Positions 21,001 through 30,000 of a stretch of DNA of 64,000 bases are shown here, piece after piece. Position numbers: made by a program. Source of the stretch: Desulfatiglandales bacterium (GTDB lineage Bacteria > Desulfobacterota > DSM-4660 > Desulfatiglandales > Desulfatiglandaceae); assembly GCA_963662465.1 (NCBI GenBank), contig OY759599.1, positions 5,632,001 through 5,696,000 of the forward strand, given 5' to 3'. How positions within the stretch are numbered: the first letter of the stretch is position 1; each line of letters starts with the position of its first letter.

Positions 21001-24000
21001 ACATCAATAAGTCACCGTTTTTCATATGCTTTTTCTCGTCAGCATCCAAGTCACTCAATCCTGCCTCGTAGGTCTCTCTCTCGCCGGGGTCCAAATCCTC
21101 TCCTTTGGCAGTGCGCACATGCAGTTGCCACCATCTCTCATGGGTTGATTGATCCATCGTTTGCGCTCCTTTTTACCAGATGAGATGATAAAACCTCACT
21201 TTTTTAAGAAACGAAGTATAAATAAAACGGTCTTAAAGATCAAGGAAGTTCCGACTATTTCGACCAGCAGGTTAGGCTGATCGCCAGCCAGGCCAGGGTG
21301 ATGTTTCATCTGAGCTGTCTCTACAAAGCCCTTGGGGGCAGGTGGGCCTCTAAGAATTCGCTGACATTCGGCCCATGAAATAGGCGGCAACCAGGGTTCC
21401 CAAAACGGTGACCAGGGAGTAGGCAAATACCGCCGCGGGCGCTACGGTTCCCGCAAAATTGGCGGATGCCGCCACCAGGGCTGCCGGAGCATTGCGCACT
21501 GTGGTATTTAAAGCCAGAGCCTTTTTTTCCCCCTTATGGGGTCCTCCCATGAACCAGCCTATGACCAGACAGGTTGTAAAAAGGACAACACTGCCAACCG
21601 CGGCCCGCCAACCGAACAGCGCAAGGGTGTGGTAATGGGTCAGTATAATCAGGGAACAAGCCCCCAGAACCAACAAATTGTTCAGAACACGAAGGGGTCC
21701 GGCGATTTTCCGGCTGACAGCGGGCTGCCAATGGTTCAGCGCCAGCCCGGCTGAAAGGGGCAGGAGTTGACCCAGGGCCACGACCTTCATGATTTTCAGA
21801 TAATTTACATTAAGGAGCTCTCCTTCCGTAAATCCTGCCATCAGTAGCTTGAGCACAGCTGGAGAAATTACGGTGGAAAGGGCGGCCAGGAGGATCATGA
21901 GGCCGATGGATAGGGGAACATCGCCCTTGGCCAGGGCCGTGAAAGGAGGCCCCATGGGGGCCCCTGAAAAAACCACTCCTATCAGGAAACCCGCAGCCAC
22001 CAAGGGATCCGGCCTGAACAGGAGAAGAAGGCCAAAGGCCGCAAATGGCGCCAGCAGGAAATTCGTGACCAACCCCTTCCAAACGATTGCCCTTTTTTTT
22101 AGGGAATCCGTCAACTGGGTCGTGGTCACGGACGAGCCCATATGAAACATGAGGCATAAAAGCCAGATAAACGTAACCGTATCGGTAACCTGGTTCAACA
22201 TCATTCAAGCTGCTCCGGTTATGCCTGTTCCAGCCTGTCCACTGCCTTCTTGATTTTCAGAACGGTCACATCCGCCAGTTTCCGGAGGCTTTCCACCTCT
22301 TCAGCGGAATAGGCGTAAAACCCCTTGCCCGTCTTCATGCCCAAGTCTCCTTTTGCCACCATGTCTTCCAGGATTTTGGGTGGTTTGAATCCGTCTTCCC
22401 CGGTTTTATCATGAACATATCTAAAAAGGTTCAAAGAGGTGTCCAAACCCGCATAATCGGCCATTCGAATGGGGCCGATGGTGCAGAGACGCAGGGCAAA
22501 GCCATTCTGAATCACGGTGTCCACATCTTCCGCCGAACAGACGCCCTTTTCCACCAGGGTCAAGGCCGCCCGGAACATGGCGGCCTGAATATAGTTGTGA
22601 ATAAAAGCGGGGTGTTCTTTTAAAACCACGGTTCGTTTCCCGATGCCATCCAAAAGACTTAATGCCAGTTCAACCGTTTTCGGGGAAGTCTTCCTGCCGG
22701 GGACCACCTCCACCACCGGCATGAGGTGAGCCGGAATAAACCAGTGGGTCACAATGGCCCTTTCAGGGTATTTCATCTCGGAAGCAATTTCGTCAATGCT
22801 CATGGAACTGGTGTTGGACGCCACGACGGTTTCTTTGCCGCAAAGCTCGCCGCACCGCTTGAACACATCCCGCTTGATATTCAGATTTTCAGGTACCGAT
22901 TCGGTCACATAATGGGCACTGCCCATGACCTCCTCCCAGTCCAGGGTGAAATGGATGCGGGATACGGCTACATCCGCTTTTCCCTGGTCCAGTACGCCCT
23001 GTTCCACCATGAGGCGGATATTGGACTCAAGCCGCTTTCGAGCATTTGCAAGGCTTGCCTGCTGCGTATCCAGCGCCTTTATCTCATACCCACTGCCCGC
23101 AAATGCCAGGGCAATATCCGGCCCCATAATACCCATACCCACCACTGCTACTCGTTTAATGTCTTCAACCTGCATGGCGATTCTCCTCCTCTATTTTCCC
23201 TTGTCCCGCTTCTCAAAAGCACGATTCACAATTCCCTGAAGTCTTTCCATGGTTTCTTTTGTCGGCGGCTTGAAATCCCTCAACTGATAAATTCTCCCCA
23301 GAAAACCGTACTTGGTTTCCCCCAACCGGTGGTAGGGCAACAGCTCATAACTGATCACATTTTCATGGGGAAGGATAAATGCCAGCACGGCCCGCACATG
23401 ACTTTCGCTATCGTTTATGCCCGGCATAATGGGACTGCGCGCCAGGAAACGCTTATCTTTAAACGTGCTATAGGCCCTTTCCAGATTCGCGAGGATCCGA
23501 CTATTGTCCACCCCCGTCCATTTTTGGTGCCGGACGGGATCCATGAGTTTAAGGTCGTGAAAGATGGTGTCCACATGGGGCAGGACCATTTCCATGGCCT
23601 TCCAGGGCACATTGCTTGCAGTCTCAATGGCGGTACTGAGCCCCCGGACACGGGCTTCCTGAAGGAGGGCCGCCGAAAACCGGGGCTGACACAAACAATC
23701 CCCGCCGCTTAGCGATAGACCCCCGCCGCTTTCCCGGTAGAAGGCATTGTCCTGTTCCACCTCCTCCAACACCTGTTCCACCGTCATCTCTTTCCCGAAT
23801 CGATAGAGAGCCATGGAAGGGCAGACGTCCACGCAAAGACCGCAGTTGGTGCAAAGATCCCAATTGATTTTCATCCGGTCGCTGGGAGAAAGGGTAAAAA
23901 TAGCGGATTCGGGGCAGATCTCCCTGCAGGCGCCGCAGGCGTCTTCCCCGATGCATTTATGGGGGTTATAGGCCAGTTCCGATTTGGGATGGATGCTCTC

Positions 24001-27000: not shown

Positions 27001-30000
27001 CTCGGCCTTGTGGGCGTATCGGTTTGCCCATGTGACAACCGCCTCACAGGTGAGCAGGCCGGCCTCGATGAAATCATTTTTTTCCGAACATCGGGGGTCC
27101 GTGGGCATGAGGGACGCGCGCATTCCCTCCAGTTCCTTTCGAATGCCCGCAAAGCCTTTCTTGAGAACACGCTCGTAGTCCAGGGTCCAGTTCTGGCTGG
27201 ACCTGCCGGTGCCGGTTTCCACATAAACGCCGGTGGGCTTTCCGTCTTTTGTCCATCCAAAATCATAGGCGGCGGGGGCGTTTGCCCGCAGCAGGCTCAT
27301 GAAGTTCACATCCAGGGCATGTTCCCGCCAATAGGGGATGATGTCCGATTCCATGACCGGCCAGTCGGAAGGGTCAATAAACGGTTCGGATGGAGCGGGG
27401 TCGTCCTTGACCATTCTTTTGAGCGATGCGTATCCTCCGCCATCGCACTCGGCAAAGGGGACCACGTAGCGACCCACCCATGGGGCAGGGGAACCCACAA
27501 TCTCCTCATCGGGATCGATGAAGACGGGAATGCGCTCCGCGAAGGCTTTGAGGAATTTGGCGTGGCGCAGGTTAATGGGCTGCCCTTCCGTTTCCCGGTA
27601 CACATCGGTCAGGATTTTTGTCCGTTCCACCAGCAGACGTATGGGCAGACTTCGAATGCGCTCCAGCAGTCGATCAAATCCCGGACTGGTCCTGACCCAG
27701 GTGGATTTTCCCTGTGCAATGGCTTTTTCCTGGGCGGTGAGTTCCCCAGTATCCATCTTTTTCTCCCTGTTTTTTGAGCTGTTAGCTCTTAGCTAAAAGC
27801 TGGAAACTATCCCTTTAGAAAATCAGGATTCGCAAACTCCGGGTCGGGATAAGTGTAAAAGCCTTTTCCAGTCTTGACCCCCAATTCTCCCTTATCAACC
27901 ATGGCCTTGAGGGCATCGGGCGGACGATCCCTTTCCTCCCCGGATTCCAGGTAGTAGCTCATCTCCACATTGTAGGTTACATCCAGGCCGTTAATATCCA
28001 TCTGACCAAAGGGTCCGACAGGCAATCCGTAAGCCACCATCCAGGCCCGGTCGATGTCCCGGAAATCCACAAACCCGTCAGCCCACATATACAGAACCTG
28101 TCGTTTAACGGACCGCCACACACGGTTAAAGCAGAAACCGTAAATCTCCTTTCTGACCGTAAGGGGAATGCAGCCGATGGCGGAAATCCATTGCTTTCCC
28201 GCTTCCAGGGTTTCGGGGCTCGTTTGACTACCCCCCATGATGTCCACCATGTTGATGCCCGTTACCGGCGTATAGAAATGCAGATTCAGGCATTTTTCGG
28301 GTCGTTTTGTGGCATCCTCGATCCTTGAAATGGGAATGGTGGAGCTGTTGCTGGCCAGGATGGCCCTGGAAGGGGCCAGGGCATCCATCTCTTTGAATAC
28401 CTTCCGCTTGAGTTCCAGATTTTCGGGCACCGCCTCGATGACCAGATCGGCATCCTTCAGGGCATCGGCCATGACGGAGGCGGTTTGTACTTTTGAAATA
28501 GCGCCGTTCCACTGTTCAATAGGGACCACAGGCCCTTTCTTGCGGGCGGTCATGATGCCTTCAAACTGCGCGACCGAGCGCTCAAAGGCCCCTTTCGTGT
28601 TGTCATAGACCGTGGCCTTGAAGTCAAAACAGGCGGCCTGAACGGCAATCTGGGCACCCAGAATGCCTGCGCCGATGATGGTTACCTGCAAGATTTGCAT
28701 GGTTTCAGGATAATTGAAAGTTTTTTCGTTCATTCTTTTCCCTCCTTATTTTTTGAGACCAAATCTGCGTATCACGCAAATCCTCGTTGAGCCCAATTCT
28801 TTACCATTGACCATTTATCGGGATTTTGATATTTTTTCCAGCATGAAACCAATCCGATACGATTGCCATGCTAGAAAGTGGATGAAAGACCGCCATGTTC
28901 ATGATGACGAAGTCAGGGTTGCCATTGAAAACCCCGACTTCATGGAGCAAAGCGTAAAAGGACGTATCAATGCCTTCAAATTCCTTAATAAAAGATATTT
29001 GAGAGTCACTTTTAAGAAGGAATTGGACCACGTATTGGTGATCACGGTAACCATAAGGAAAAAACCTTTCAAGGAGTAACTCGATGAAAATCGAATACAG
29101 CAAAGGGATTGATGCCTTATATATTCGGCTTAGAGAAGTCCGTATTTCCGACTCCATGGACATAGAAGAAGGCGTAACAGTTGACCTGGATGAAAAAGGC
29201 CATATCGTCGGCATCGAAATCCTGGACGCAAGTGAAAAAATGGCTATCTCTGATCTTTTCAACATCCATATCGAAAACTTCCCACTTGAAAAGGTAGCCT
29301 GATCCATTTTCTTGTCCCACCCGCCTGGCATAGCCTGTCACTTCAATCCTAACGCCAGCGGGTACGCTCAAATTTCCCCGTTATGGCCGCATTCACCACA
29401 TCCCGGCGTGTGCCCAGCCAGTTTTTGGGGAAACCGATGCCTGACCCGAGGGTAGCCATCTTGAGGCTGTCGGTGGCATAGACCAGGGATTCAGCCACCT
29501 GGAAGTCCCGGTCGATCATACCGGGACAGCAGGAGTGAACTACCCGGGCCCCGCTTTTTTCCACGGCTTCCACCAATCCCGCCTTTTTGGCGGCGCTGTA
29601 CATGATATAGTCCGTATATAACCAGAGACGCTTTTTCACCTTCTGCCCATTCAGGAGTTTGGCCAGTTCGACGAATTCCTCAAGGGTCAAAAACGGGCAC
29701 CCCACCACCGCCACATCGATTTCACGATTCTCGGTCTGATGGATGCCGTGGAAAAGGGCGCGTAAATCCGCCTTGCCGATTTGAATGCGCTCTACATCAG
29801 CGGGAATTTCACCCCCGAAAGCATCCTCAAGGGTCTGGGCTTCGGGGGTAATGCCCACAATGTGGATCATGGGGTAGGTCAACGCCGGGGAGACGCAGGC
29901 ACAGAATGCCTTGGCCTGCTCGTTGGTCATCTCCTTGAGACCCGCCACTACCGGCACCCGGTCCACGGCCCGAAAGCCGATGGCGCCTCCCAGGGCAACA

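What a model noticed while it worked through the whole genome (the two positions that open the first line are those of the whole stretch)
21350..28733. Unassigned IslA/HpsG-related glycyl radical enzyme operon with a motif-less PFK paralogue
g05193 is a glycyl radical enzyme about 42% identical to isethionate sulfite-lyase that keeps both anion-binding arginines and the Cys-x-Glu loop but changes other pocket residues. It forms a conserved operon with its activase, a phosphofructokinase paralogue lacking the GGDG motif, 3-hydroxyacyl-CoA dehydrogenases and a transporter: a candidate new radical pathway for a sulfonated or phosphorylated substrate.
Evidence so far: Below every NCBIfam cut-off, best HpsG 819 of 1000. 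Alignment to 5ymr/6lon. GRE+PFK+activase+3HCDH together in 4 of 4 loci from 3 other genomes, one titled Alphaproteobacteria. GGDG lost and TIDND changed in all 4 aligned PFK paralogues. Paper search 42 found nothing.
(Added by a program. Inside this text positions count along the whole contig: contig position 5,632,001 is position 1 of the stretch shown here. "Call 12" and the like, gene names such as g00115 and contig names such as C1 are that model's own, and its searches are not shown. The text may have been shortened before it was handed on; [...] marks where a part breaks off. The agent that wrote the report below was given it as the finding of a first reader that could run no searches.)

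Follow-up and report, generated by a model that had tools for sequence, protein, structure and literature searches.

The report
Radical enzyme with dead-kinase activase partner
This operon encodes an oxygen-sensitive radical enzyme of an unstudied lineage, probably acting on a small hydroxy-acid, plus a phosphofructokinase look-alike that has lost its kinase residues and most likely serves as a binding partner of the enzyme's activating protein.

Summary
Observation confirmed; interpretation partly changed. The glycyl radical enzyme (GRE) forms a separate clade (15 clusters at 66-90% identity, then 45% or less). It keeps IslA's two arginines, Cys-x-Glu and Gly, but replaces Gln193, Thr312, Trp374, Val680 and Phe682 throughout, so it fails IslA/HpsG membership. 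The PFK paralogue is not specific to this pathway: 120 of 120 relatives lack GGDG and TIDND, and 15 of 16 copies sit directly upstream of one activase family that serves unrelated GRE clades. A complex model supports PFK-activase binding (ipSAE 0.67, best control 0.00), centred on the activase's auxiliary ferredoxin domain, whose function a 2026 review calls unknown. A 33-bp gap in the window's PFK gene is absent from otherwise identical public contigs, so is probably an assembly error. Best reading: a 1,2-eliminase turning a C4-substituted 3-hydroxy acid into a 3-oxo acid, activated by a pseudo-PFK/activase complex. The substrate is inferred; a sulfonate lyase remains a close rival, a phosphorylated substrate is unlikely. 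The scan noted this module before in three other genomes.

The parts
29349..31136 (-).
   Evidence: Pfam AcnX 6e-110 and swivel 7e-21. C295/C480/C537, S68-T69, E314-S315, K559 align with TkAcnX/AtAcnX cluster and carboxylate/C3-OH residues. Beside the GRE in L005, L006, L007, L010, L012 and L040.
29084..29302 (+). DUF2283 small protein, part of a low-GC antisense insert (putative toxin-antitoxin pair); not part of the pathway
   Evidence: Pfam DUF2283 2e-17; insert GC 0.418 vs 0.546 for the operon; AcnX and 3HCDH are 24 nt apart in L040.
28843..29079 (+). DUF4258 small protein, second gene of the insert
   Evidence: Pfam DUF4258 24.9 bits, just under the cut-off of 25.
27807..28733 (-). 3-hydroxyacyl-CoA-dehydrogenase-fold oxidoreductase 1 (308 aa)
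   Evidence: Pfam 3HCDH_N/3HCDH; below all NCBIfam cut-offs; nearest solved structure is diketoreductase 4DYD; orthologue in L005, L006, L040.
25261..27756 (-). Glycyl radical enzyme (831 aa) of an uncharacterised clade related to IslA/IseG/HpsG
24145..25224 (-). Pseudo-phosphofructokinase (359 aa as assembled): PFK fold without GGDG, TIDND or MGR; predicted partner of the activase
   Evidence: Pfam PFK 5e-60; motifs; synteny; complex model of the L003 orthologue pair.
24200..24213 (-). Site of an in-frame 33-bp (11-codon) gap in the window's pseudo-PFK, over the predicted activase-binding segment; probably an assembly error
   Evidence: Gap against relatives. Contigs of runs X1 and X2 (one sample, 0 other differences over the operon) and one X4 contig hold 45 letters where the window has 12.
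23191..24129 (-). Radical SAM GRE activating enzyme (312 aa) with an 8-Cys auxiliary ferredoxin domain; member of the pseudo-PFK-linked activase family
   Evidence: TIGR02494 330.5 vs cut-off 174.35; HpsH model 389 vs 430; identities; tree.
22219..23175 (-). 3-hydroxyacyl-CoA-dehydrogenase-fold oxidoreductase 2 (318 aa)
   Evidence: Pfam; nearest solved structure is FHMPC 5-dehydrogenase 4OM8; present in 7 of 12 related loci.
21350..22204 (-). BASS/SBF-family symporter (284 aa)
   Evidence: Pfam SBF 3.5e-21; in 5 of 12 related loci and beside other GRE clades.

Best explanation
Two modules. (1) Activation: the pseudo-PFK is a non-catalytic partner that binds the radical SAM activase, mainly on its auxiliary ferredoxin domain, and stabilises or gates glycyl-radical installation. 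The pair is reused with several unrelated GREs (about 0.65 on its own; synteny and motif loss shown, binding modelled, function inferred). (2) Catabolism: the GRE is a 1,2-eliminase. The C463 thiyl radical takes H from a carbinol carbon, E465 is the base, R185/R680 hold an anion one carbon further on, and an enlarged pocket takes a longer chain than isethionate or DHPS (chemistry class about 0.8, inferred from conserved residues). The neighbours all point to free 3-hydroxy/3-oxo-acid chemistry, so the most likely reaction is loss of a C4 leaving group (water, amine or sulfite) from a 3-hydroxy acid to give a 3-oxo acid (acetoacetate in the simplest case). AcnX interconverts the 3-hydroxy acid and its 2-enoate, the two dehydrogenases interconvert 3-oxo and 3-hydroxy forms, and BASS imports the acid (about 0.4, inferred).
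For: Pseudo-PFK: 0 of 120 relatives have GG[DE] at the GGDG site, TIDND or MGR. 15 of 16 copies lie about -7 to +28 nt upstream of an activase, and 0 of 8 nearest motif-intact PFKs do. Reciprocal search from the activase: 3 of 3 new family members with upstream DNA have the pseudo-PFK, 0 of 5 lower-scoring activases do. Activases next to clade-B/C GREs are 59-67% identical to the window's while their GREs are 32-43%; an IslA-type activase is 50%. The 15 PFK-linked activases split from the 5 others at 100% bootstrap. Complex model ipSAE 0.67, best of 3 controls 0.00 (mark reached by 116 of 157 solved complexes and 2 of 215 mismatched pairs; runs agree in at least 65% of contacts; partner pLDDT at least 84). 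GRE: CxE kept as in all eliminases/isomerases; HypD has an Arg at the R189 position that contacts a non-sulfonate substrate through water. AcnX keeps the carboxylate/C3-OH residues that both characterised AcnX enzymes share. Nearest solved relatives of both dehydrogenases are non-CoA enzymes by name. A beta-keto acid cleavage enzyme lies upstream in L005 and L040, and a 3-hydroxybutyrate-dehydrogenase-like gene upstream in L004.
Against: No activity, expression or binding data. All three characterised two-arginine GREs release sulfite. AcnX is absent from 2 informative loci (L004, L008) and was not found in genomes G448 and G010; it has Leu where AtAcnX needs Tyr534. The beta-keto acid cleavage gene has no close orthologue in the window's genome (best 34%). 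L008 and L009 show no PFK or activase in the DNA held. Predicted interface residues are no more conserved than the rest of the pseudo-PFK (0.82 vs 0.81). The complex was folded for the L003 orthologue pair, with my own alignments, so calibration counts hold only roughly. Activases in the tree were picked by similarity, so their grouping is partly by design.
Confidence: 0.4

Rival explanations
1. The GRE is a C-S lyase like IslA/HpsG for a larger hydroxyalkyl-sulfonate (a C4 or sulfo-sugar-acid type), giving sulfite for respiration; the dehydrogenases and AcnX handle the carbon skeleton. The pseudo-PFK is still an activase partner.
For: Closest solved structures and best NCBIfam model are the sulfite lyases. 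R185 and R680 are invariant in the clade, and two amides (Q188, N189) stand where IslA has I192/Q193. The window's genome and two same-genus genomes carry dsrA.
Against: Q193 and V680 are essential in IslA and are Asn and Leu here in every clade member; Thr312, Trp374 and Phe682 also differ. dsrA was not found in G448, whose only PF02901 match is this clade (completeness not given), nor in 3 genomes (82-96% complete) with related two-arginine GREs. No sulfite exporter was recognised in the loci I annotated. The AcnX tail site has D215/E246 where TkAcnX binds phosphate, which would not favour an anionic tail (alignment only).
Confidence: 0.3
2. One reading: the PFK paralogue is an active kinase with changed motifs that phosphorylates a pathway intermediate, and the GRE acts on a phosphorylated substrate (as YbiW/PflD do).
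For: PFK fold kept; EN[DEQH] in 119 of 120 relatives and the E222/R252-equivalent sites largely kept; one AcnX type acts on mevalonate 5-phosphate.
Against: GGDG, the catalytic Asp and the MGR Arg are all lost. The gene follows the activase across GRE clades with different pockets, including one with no CxE motif. AcnX lacks the phosphate-binding loop. The complex model gives it another role.
Confidence: 0.06
3. The GRE is a ring-opening isomerase or dehydratase of a cyclic or polyol acid (HplG/YbiW-like, for example a hydroxyproline or deoxy sugar acid), or does other radical chemistry helped by the clade-specific C476.
For: GRE isomerases also keep CxE. AcnX type I acts on cis-3-hydroxy-L-proline. 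The L005 cleavage enzyme is nearest to 3-keto-5-aminohexanoate cleavage enzyme. C476 is present in 16 of 16 clade sequences, where IslA-type hits have Ser in 52 of 52.
Against: HplG, YbiW, PflD and HypD score far lower than the sulfite lyases. AcnX lacks the AtAcnX Asp203/Trp35 ring contacts by alignment. No hydroxyproline or sugar-phosphate genes were seen in the loci.
Confidence: 0.15
4. The pseudo-PFK is only a co-inherited passenger or regulator of a mobile gene island and does not bind the activase.
For: These loci often sit among recurring island genes. The tool text notes that 7 of 44 blind neighbour pairs passed. Some copies are frameshifted (L002, L004, L057, L059).
Against: Position is fixed directly upstream of the activase in 15 of 16 copies whatever the GRE or gene order; the family keeps 71% mean column identity; controls scored 0.00.
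Confidence: 0.2

Closest known systems
Isethionate sulfite-lyase IslA/IseG (7KQ3, 5YMR) and DHPS sulfite-lyase HpsG (6LON)
   Same: Fold (TM 0.92-0.94, rmsd 2.1-2.3 A), 38-41% identity, Gly loop, Cys-x-Glu, both arginines.
   Different: Q193N, I192Q, T312G, W374F, S481C, V680L, F682V across the clade; separate branch, support 0.999; neighbours are AcnX, 3HCDH-fold enzymes, BASS and a pseudo-PFK.
GRE activating enzymes with auxiliary ferredoxin domain (HpsH, IslB, HPAD-AE; TIGR02494)
   Same: CX3CX2C plus eight auxiliary Cys; passes TIGR02494.
   Different: A distinct family tied to a pseudo-PFK. The review sections read (PMC13450708 sections 2 and 4.2) list accessory subunits only on the GRE side (HPAD, BSS, MASS); the full text has no 'phosphofructokinase'.
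Mixed-substrate (group III) phosphofructokinases, TIGR02483; regulatory C-terminal half of eukaryotic PFK
   Same: Fold; nearest motif-intact relatives are 37-42% identical. The eukaryotic second half shows similar loss of the catalytic Asp and MGR Arg in the printed alignment (its regulatory role is recalled).
   Different: Stand-alone protein lacking GGDG, TIDND and MGR; 255 bits vs cut-off 430.55; linked to an activase.
[quoted passage not shown]
   Same: Catalytic Ser, Glu-Ser, Lys; three Cys in the type II pattern.
   Different: Fused like type I but with type II Cys pattern; 222.8 vs LhpI cut-off 700; phosphate loop and ring contacts changed; Tyr534 site is Leu.

Membership tests
GRE superfamily, 1,2-eliminase type | C-terminal Gly-radical motif and thiyl Cys | tested here: met
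   RVAG807Y and C463 in 16 of 16 clade sequences.
GRE superfamily, 1,2-eliminase type | Cys-x-Glu loop | tested here: met
   C463-x-E465 in 16 of 16; feature from PMC13450708 section 5.6.
IslA/IseG/HpsG C-S lyases | Two arginines (IslA R189, R678) | tested here: met
   R185 15 of 15 with sequence there, R680 16 of 16; also in 53 and 49 of 53 hits of other clades.
IslA/IseG/HpsG C-S lyases | Sulfonate-binding Gln (IslA Q193, essential) | tested here: not met
   Asn in 15 of 15; Gln in 52 of 52 IslA-type hits.
IslA/IseG/HpsG C-S lyases | Trp374, Val680, Phe682, Thr312 pocket | tested here: not met
   Phe, Leu, Val, Gly in 16 of 16; roles from PMC8473560.
IslA/IseG/HpsG C-S lyases | NCBIfam NF048011 (HpsG) cut-off 1000 | tested here: not met
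   818.7. The cut-off is blunt: a clade-B GRE with a different pocket passes at 1014.5.
IslA/IseG/HpsG C-S lyases | Sulfite release from isethionate or DHPS | not testable with these tools
   Needs an anaerobic assay.
Phosphofructokinase A family | PFK fold (PF00365) | tested here: met
   203.8 bits.
Phosphofructokinase A family | GGDG nucleotide/Mg motif (role recalled) | tested here: not met
   VLGLKE in the window; 0 of 120 relatives have GG[DE] there.
Phosphofructokinase A family | TIDND catalytic Asp and MGR Arg (roles recalled) | tested here: not met
   AVEND and LGT in the window; 0 of 120 for either motif.
GRE activating enzymes | CX3CX2C radical SAM motif; TIGR02494 cut-off | tested here: met
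   330.5 vs 174.35.
Aconitase X | AcnX + swivel domains, three cluster Cys, catalytic Ser, Glu, Lys | tested here: met
   residues from PMC8184944.
[quoted passage not shown] | Substrate-specific residues (At Asp203, Trp35, Tyr534; Tk Gly48-Ser50, Asn53, Asn79) and LhpI cut-off | tested here: not met
   Not kept in the phmmer alignments; 222.8 vs 700. Alignment at about 30% identity, so register is uncertain.
3-hydroxyacyl-CoA dehydrogenase | Acts on a CoA thioester | tested here: inconclusive
   Both genes have the fold but miss every NCBIfam cut-off; nearest structures are 4OM8 and 4DYD; no CoA ligase or transferase in the operon.

The most novel reading that the evidence does not exclude
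A dead phosphofructokinase has become a dedicated subunit of a family of GRE activases. It docks on the auxiliary ferredoxin domain and controls or enables radical installation (perhaps still sensing a metabolite), and the pair acts as a portable activation cassette for several uncharacterised GRE clades. Here it drives a new radical elimination on a 3-hydroxy carboxylic acid, the carboxylate look-alike of isethionate/DHPS cleavage.
Probability: 0.35. Interest if true: 0.9.

Novelty: new variant of a known kind. Interest (0 to 1): 0.76.

Why it matters
[quoted passage not shown] A conserved partner predicted to bind that domain gives a direct test: co-express and measure solubility and radical yield. 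It would also be the key to assigning several uncharacterised GRE clades. The GRE itself would add a new reaction in sediment and wetland anaerobes, and it warns that 'two arginines' or an HpsG annotation does not by itself mean desulfonation.

Tried and rejected
First GRE model from 16 sequences was unusable (pLDDT 52); redone with 94 (pLDDT 92), but no coordinates are returned, so the pocket was read from alignments only. Pseudo-PFK searches found no family member in plasmids (30 records, listed ones 31-37% identical), viral contigs or 301 genomes of the order of G448 (G448's own frameshifted copy was also missed at that threshold). ESM Atlas gave only generic PFK clusters. No RNA holder listed. 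Promoter/terminator scan was uninformative. Interface conservation showed no enrichment. The idea that clade-C GREs are PhdB was dropped: Cys443/Gly781 in L039 do not match PhdB Cys482/Gly815; the original PhdB paper is not held, so its gene cluster is unchecked. A beta-keto acid cleavage enzyme as a core member was dropped (2 loci only, none close in the window's genome). Matching contig lengths between the PFK and activase hit lists (8 vs 1.1 by chance) is indirect and not counted as evidence. Paper searches listed nothing describing this operon or a PFK-like activase partner; most subscription papers and all supplements were outside what I saw.

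
Full report
Observation. The - strand carries, with gaps of 14-50 nt, a 3HCDH-fold gene (27807-28733), a GRE (25261-27756), a PFK-fold gene (24145-25224), a radical SAM activase (23191-24129), a second 3HCDH-fold gene (22219-23175) and a BASS symporter (21350-22204). The GRE is below all 12 NCBIfam cut-offs it hits, best HpsG 818.7 of 1000. Its best solved relatives are IseG, HpsG and IslA by sequence and by fold (TM 0.92-0.94 for a model of pLDDT 92). It is the only full-length PF02901 gene in the window's genome.

Missed gene. Upstream, past a 615-bp low-GC insert with an antisense DUF4258/DUF2283 pair, lies a fused aconitase X (29349-31136). 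Of 12 related loci (L001-L012), AcnX is beside the GRE in 5 (L005, L006, L007, L010, L012; L006 and L007 are near-identical). It is absent in 2 informative loci (L004, L008), and 5 are cut or broken upstream. A further contig (L040) has AcnX, 3HCDH-1 and the GRE start with no insert. PFK + activase occur in 8 of 12, 3HCDH-2 in 7, BASS in 5, and an SDR follows the GRE in 4. L002 is a broken copy.

The GRE clade. The protein search gave 15 clusters at 66-90% identity, then 45% or less (best 120 listed). A 58-sequence tree separates the clade with support 0.999 (rooting on a distant pair is unreliable, so I make no claim on branching order). IslA numbering was counted from the 7KQ3 alignment and roles read in PMC8473560 (passages and the mutagenesis section) and PMC13450708 (sections 2, 4.2, 5.6, 5.7, 7). 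R189, C468, E470, R678 and G805 are kept. I192 is Gln, Q193 Asn, T312 Gly, W374 Phe, S481 Cys, V680 Leu and F682 Val in every clade sequence that covers the site (15 or 16 of 16), whereas 52 of 52 IslA-type hits keep Q, T, W, S, V, F. Q193A and V680A are inactive in IslA. The enzyme therefore works like an eliminase but is not an IslA/HpsG member. The two arginines are shared with nearly all other clades among the hits (53 and 49 of 53), and HypD has an Arg at the first site, so they point to an anion, not necessarily a sulfonate.

The PFK paralogue is a family of its own. All 120 best hits (53-100% identity) lack GG[DE] at the GGDG site, TIDND and MGR. The roles of these motifs are recalled from E. 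coli PFK. Searching 301 genomes of the phylum, and then 96, 17 and 401 more (overlapping sets), found motif-less copies in six other genomes. All six have a GRE within the fetched 12-20 kb, but of other clades: 40-43% identical with different pocket motifs (L030, L031, L038, L043, second GRE of L039), or about 30% identical with GACVG and no Cys-x-Glu (L032, L039). Over all loci then held, 15 of 16 copies lie directly upstream of an activase; the other lies directly downstream of one. None of the 8 nearest motif-intact PFKs has an activase within 1.5 kb. In the reverse test, an activase profile over 209 genomes of the class gave 4 new family members: 3 of 3 with upstream DNA have the pseudo-PFK there and one is cut, while 5 of 5 lower-scoring activases follow a GRE with no PFK. 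Activases beside clade-B/C GREs are 59-67% identical to the window's although their GREs are only 32-43%. The 15 PFK-linked activases split from the other 5 at 100% bootstrap, and those of this GRE clade are not one group within them. The selection by similarity makes the split partly expected. The pseudo-PFK follows the activase, not the substrate pocket.

Complex model. For the intact L003 pair (P0242, P0124; 83% and 76% identical to the window's) the model supports binding without showing it. ipSAE is 0.67 against a best control of 0.00. The mark was reached by 116 of 157 solved complexes and 2 of 215 mismatched pairs, counts that hold only roughly with my alignments. Runs agree in at least 65% of contacts and partner pLDDT is at least 84. 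I know of no solved complex of this kind (recalled, not searched). The lowest-error contacts join activase residues 75-92, inside the auxiliary ferredoxin domain, to PFK residues 128-132 and 342-350; a PFK hairpin (84-99) reaches the region of the CX3CX2C loop. Several interface positions are family-specific (N95, E99, K132, N343 at 94-100% vs scattered residues in 48 motif-intact PFKs), but mean conservation at the interface equals the protein average (0.82 vs 0.81). The review states that this domain's structure and function are not known.

An artefact. The window's pseudo-PFK lacks 11 codons that cover the predicted contact segment. Contigs of runs X1 and X2 (one sample, possibly the source of the assembly) match the operon with no other difference but hold 45 letters where the window has 12; so does a contig of a related strain in another study, X4. 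The gap is most likely an assembly error, or a minority allele. X4 contigs also show the same gene order from 3HCDH-2 to AcnX.

Substrate. AcnX keeps the residues that, in both characterised AcnX enzymes, hold the carboxylate and C3-OH (S68-T69, E314-S315, K559) and three Cys in the type II pattern. It does not keep the phosphate loop or the proline-ring contacts, and has Leu at the Tyr534 site (PMC8184944 passages; PMC5144071 passages). Both dehydrogenases are nearest to non-CoA enzymes by name (4OM8, 4DYD), and the operon has no CoA ligase. A beta-keto acid cleavage enzyme lies upstream in L005 and L040, and a 3-hydroxybutyrate-dehydrogenase-like gene in L004 next to an ORF I read as acetoacetate decarboxylase from memory (Pfam and NCBIfam gave no hit on the fragment). 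A 3-hydroxy acid places its anion at the same distance from the carbinol carbon as isethionate and DHPS do (inference). I therefore favour loss of a C4 leaving group from a 3-hydroxy acid, giving a 3-oxo acid (about 0.4), over a sulfite lyase for a larger hydroxysulfonate (about 0.3). A 4-sulfo-3-hydroxy acid would satisfy both. dsrA is present in the window's genome and two same-genus genomes, and was not found in G448 or in three genomes with related two-arginine GREs; this is weak either way. A phosphorylated substrate made by the PFK paralogue is unlikely (about 0.06).

Literature and earlier notes. Searches listed no paper on this operon or on a PFK-like activase partner. PMC7079210 and PMC13101534 (passages) have no 'phosphofructokinase'. 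The PhdB discovery paper is not held, the HpsG paper was not read, and no supplements were seen, so absence from print is not established. Three earlier AI notes on other genomes describe the same pseudo-PFK/activase pairing, one with a split AcnX. I had reached that reading before and do not count them as support. Sequence look-ups of the scan found nothing.

Verdict. Real, conserved and uncharacterised: a new variant of a known kind of system. The best-supported new element is the pseudo-PFK/activase module; the reaction of the GRE remains an inference.

Noticed in passing
window 28843-29302 (+): Low-GC DUF4258 + DUF2283 pair inserted antisense between AcnX and 3HCDH-1; absent in L040, present in the X4 strain contig.
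   Followed up: partly
window 24200-24213: 33-bp in-frame gap not present in otherwise identical public contigs: probable assembly error.
   Followed up: yes
L030:5708-8266, L031:14102-16600, L038:12704-15202: A second uncharacterised two-arginine GRE clade (RHSQNW, GCCE, RQIPITF) followed by an SDR. The L030 protein passes the NCBIfam HpsG cut-off (1014.5) despite a different pocket, so such HpsG annotations may be wrong.
   Followed up: partly
L032:5394-8015, L039:6942-9458, L057, L058:11966-14389: GRE clade with GACVG and no Cys-x-Glu, about 30% to the window's GRE; often with two pseudo-PFK copies near one activase and extra 4Fe-4S proteins. Several of these activases lack some auxiliary cysteines.
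   Followed up: partly
L043:12062-16700: A split (two-gene) aconitase X directly upstream of a GRE of another clade, with pseudo-PFK, activase and BASS downstream.
   Followed up: partly
L005:1836-7046 and L040:9231-14494: Beta-keto acid cleavage enzyme, TRAP transporter and a 4Fe-4S protein directly upstream of AcnX in two close relatives; a sigma54-type regulator-like ORF (read from memory) is divergent in L040.
   Followed up: partly
L002 (G010): Decaying copy: 5' part of the GRE missing next to a transposase-like ORF, frameshifts in the pseudo-PFK, shortened 3HCDH.
   Followed up: no
L059:7662-10346: Activase reading frame runs on to 894 aa; fusion or frameshift not examined.
   Followed up: no
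window 35508-38400 (-): TRAP transporter (DctP, DctQ-like, DctM) about 4 kb upstream on the same strand; only 27-47% to the L005 TRAP genes, link to the operon unknown.
   Followed up: partly
window 15787-17870 (+): Succinyl-CoA-synthetase-like alpha/beta pair followed by a MenA-like prenyltransferase and a CAAX-protease-like gene (names read from the sequence from memory, not searched).
   Followed up: no
GRE residue C476: Cysteine invariant in the clade (16 of 16) on the strand next to the thiyl loop, where IslA-type enzymes have Ser; may matter for mechanism.
   Followed up: partly
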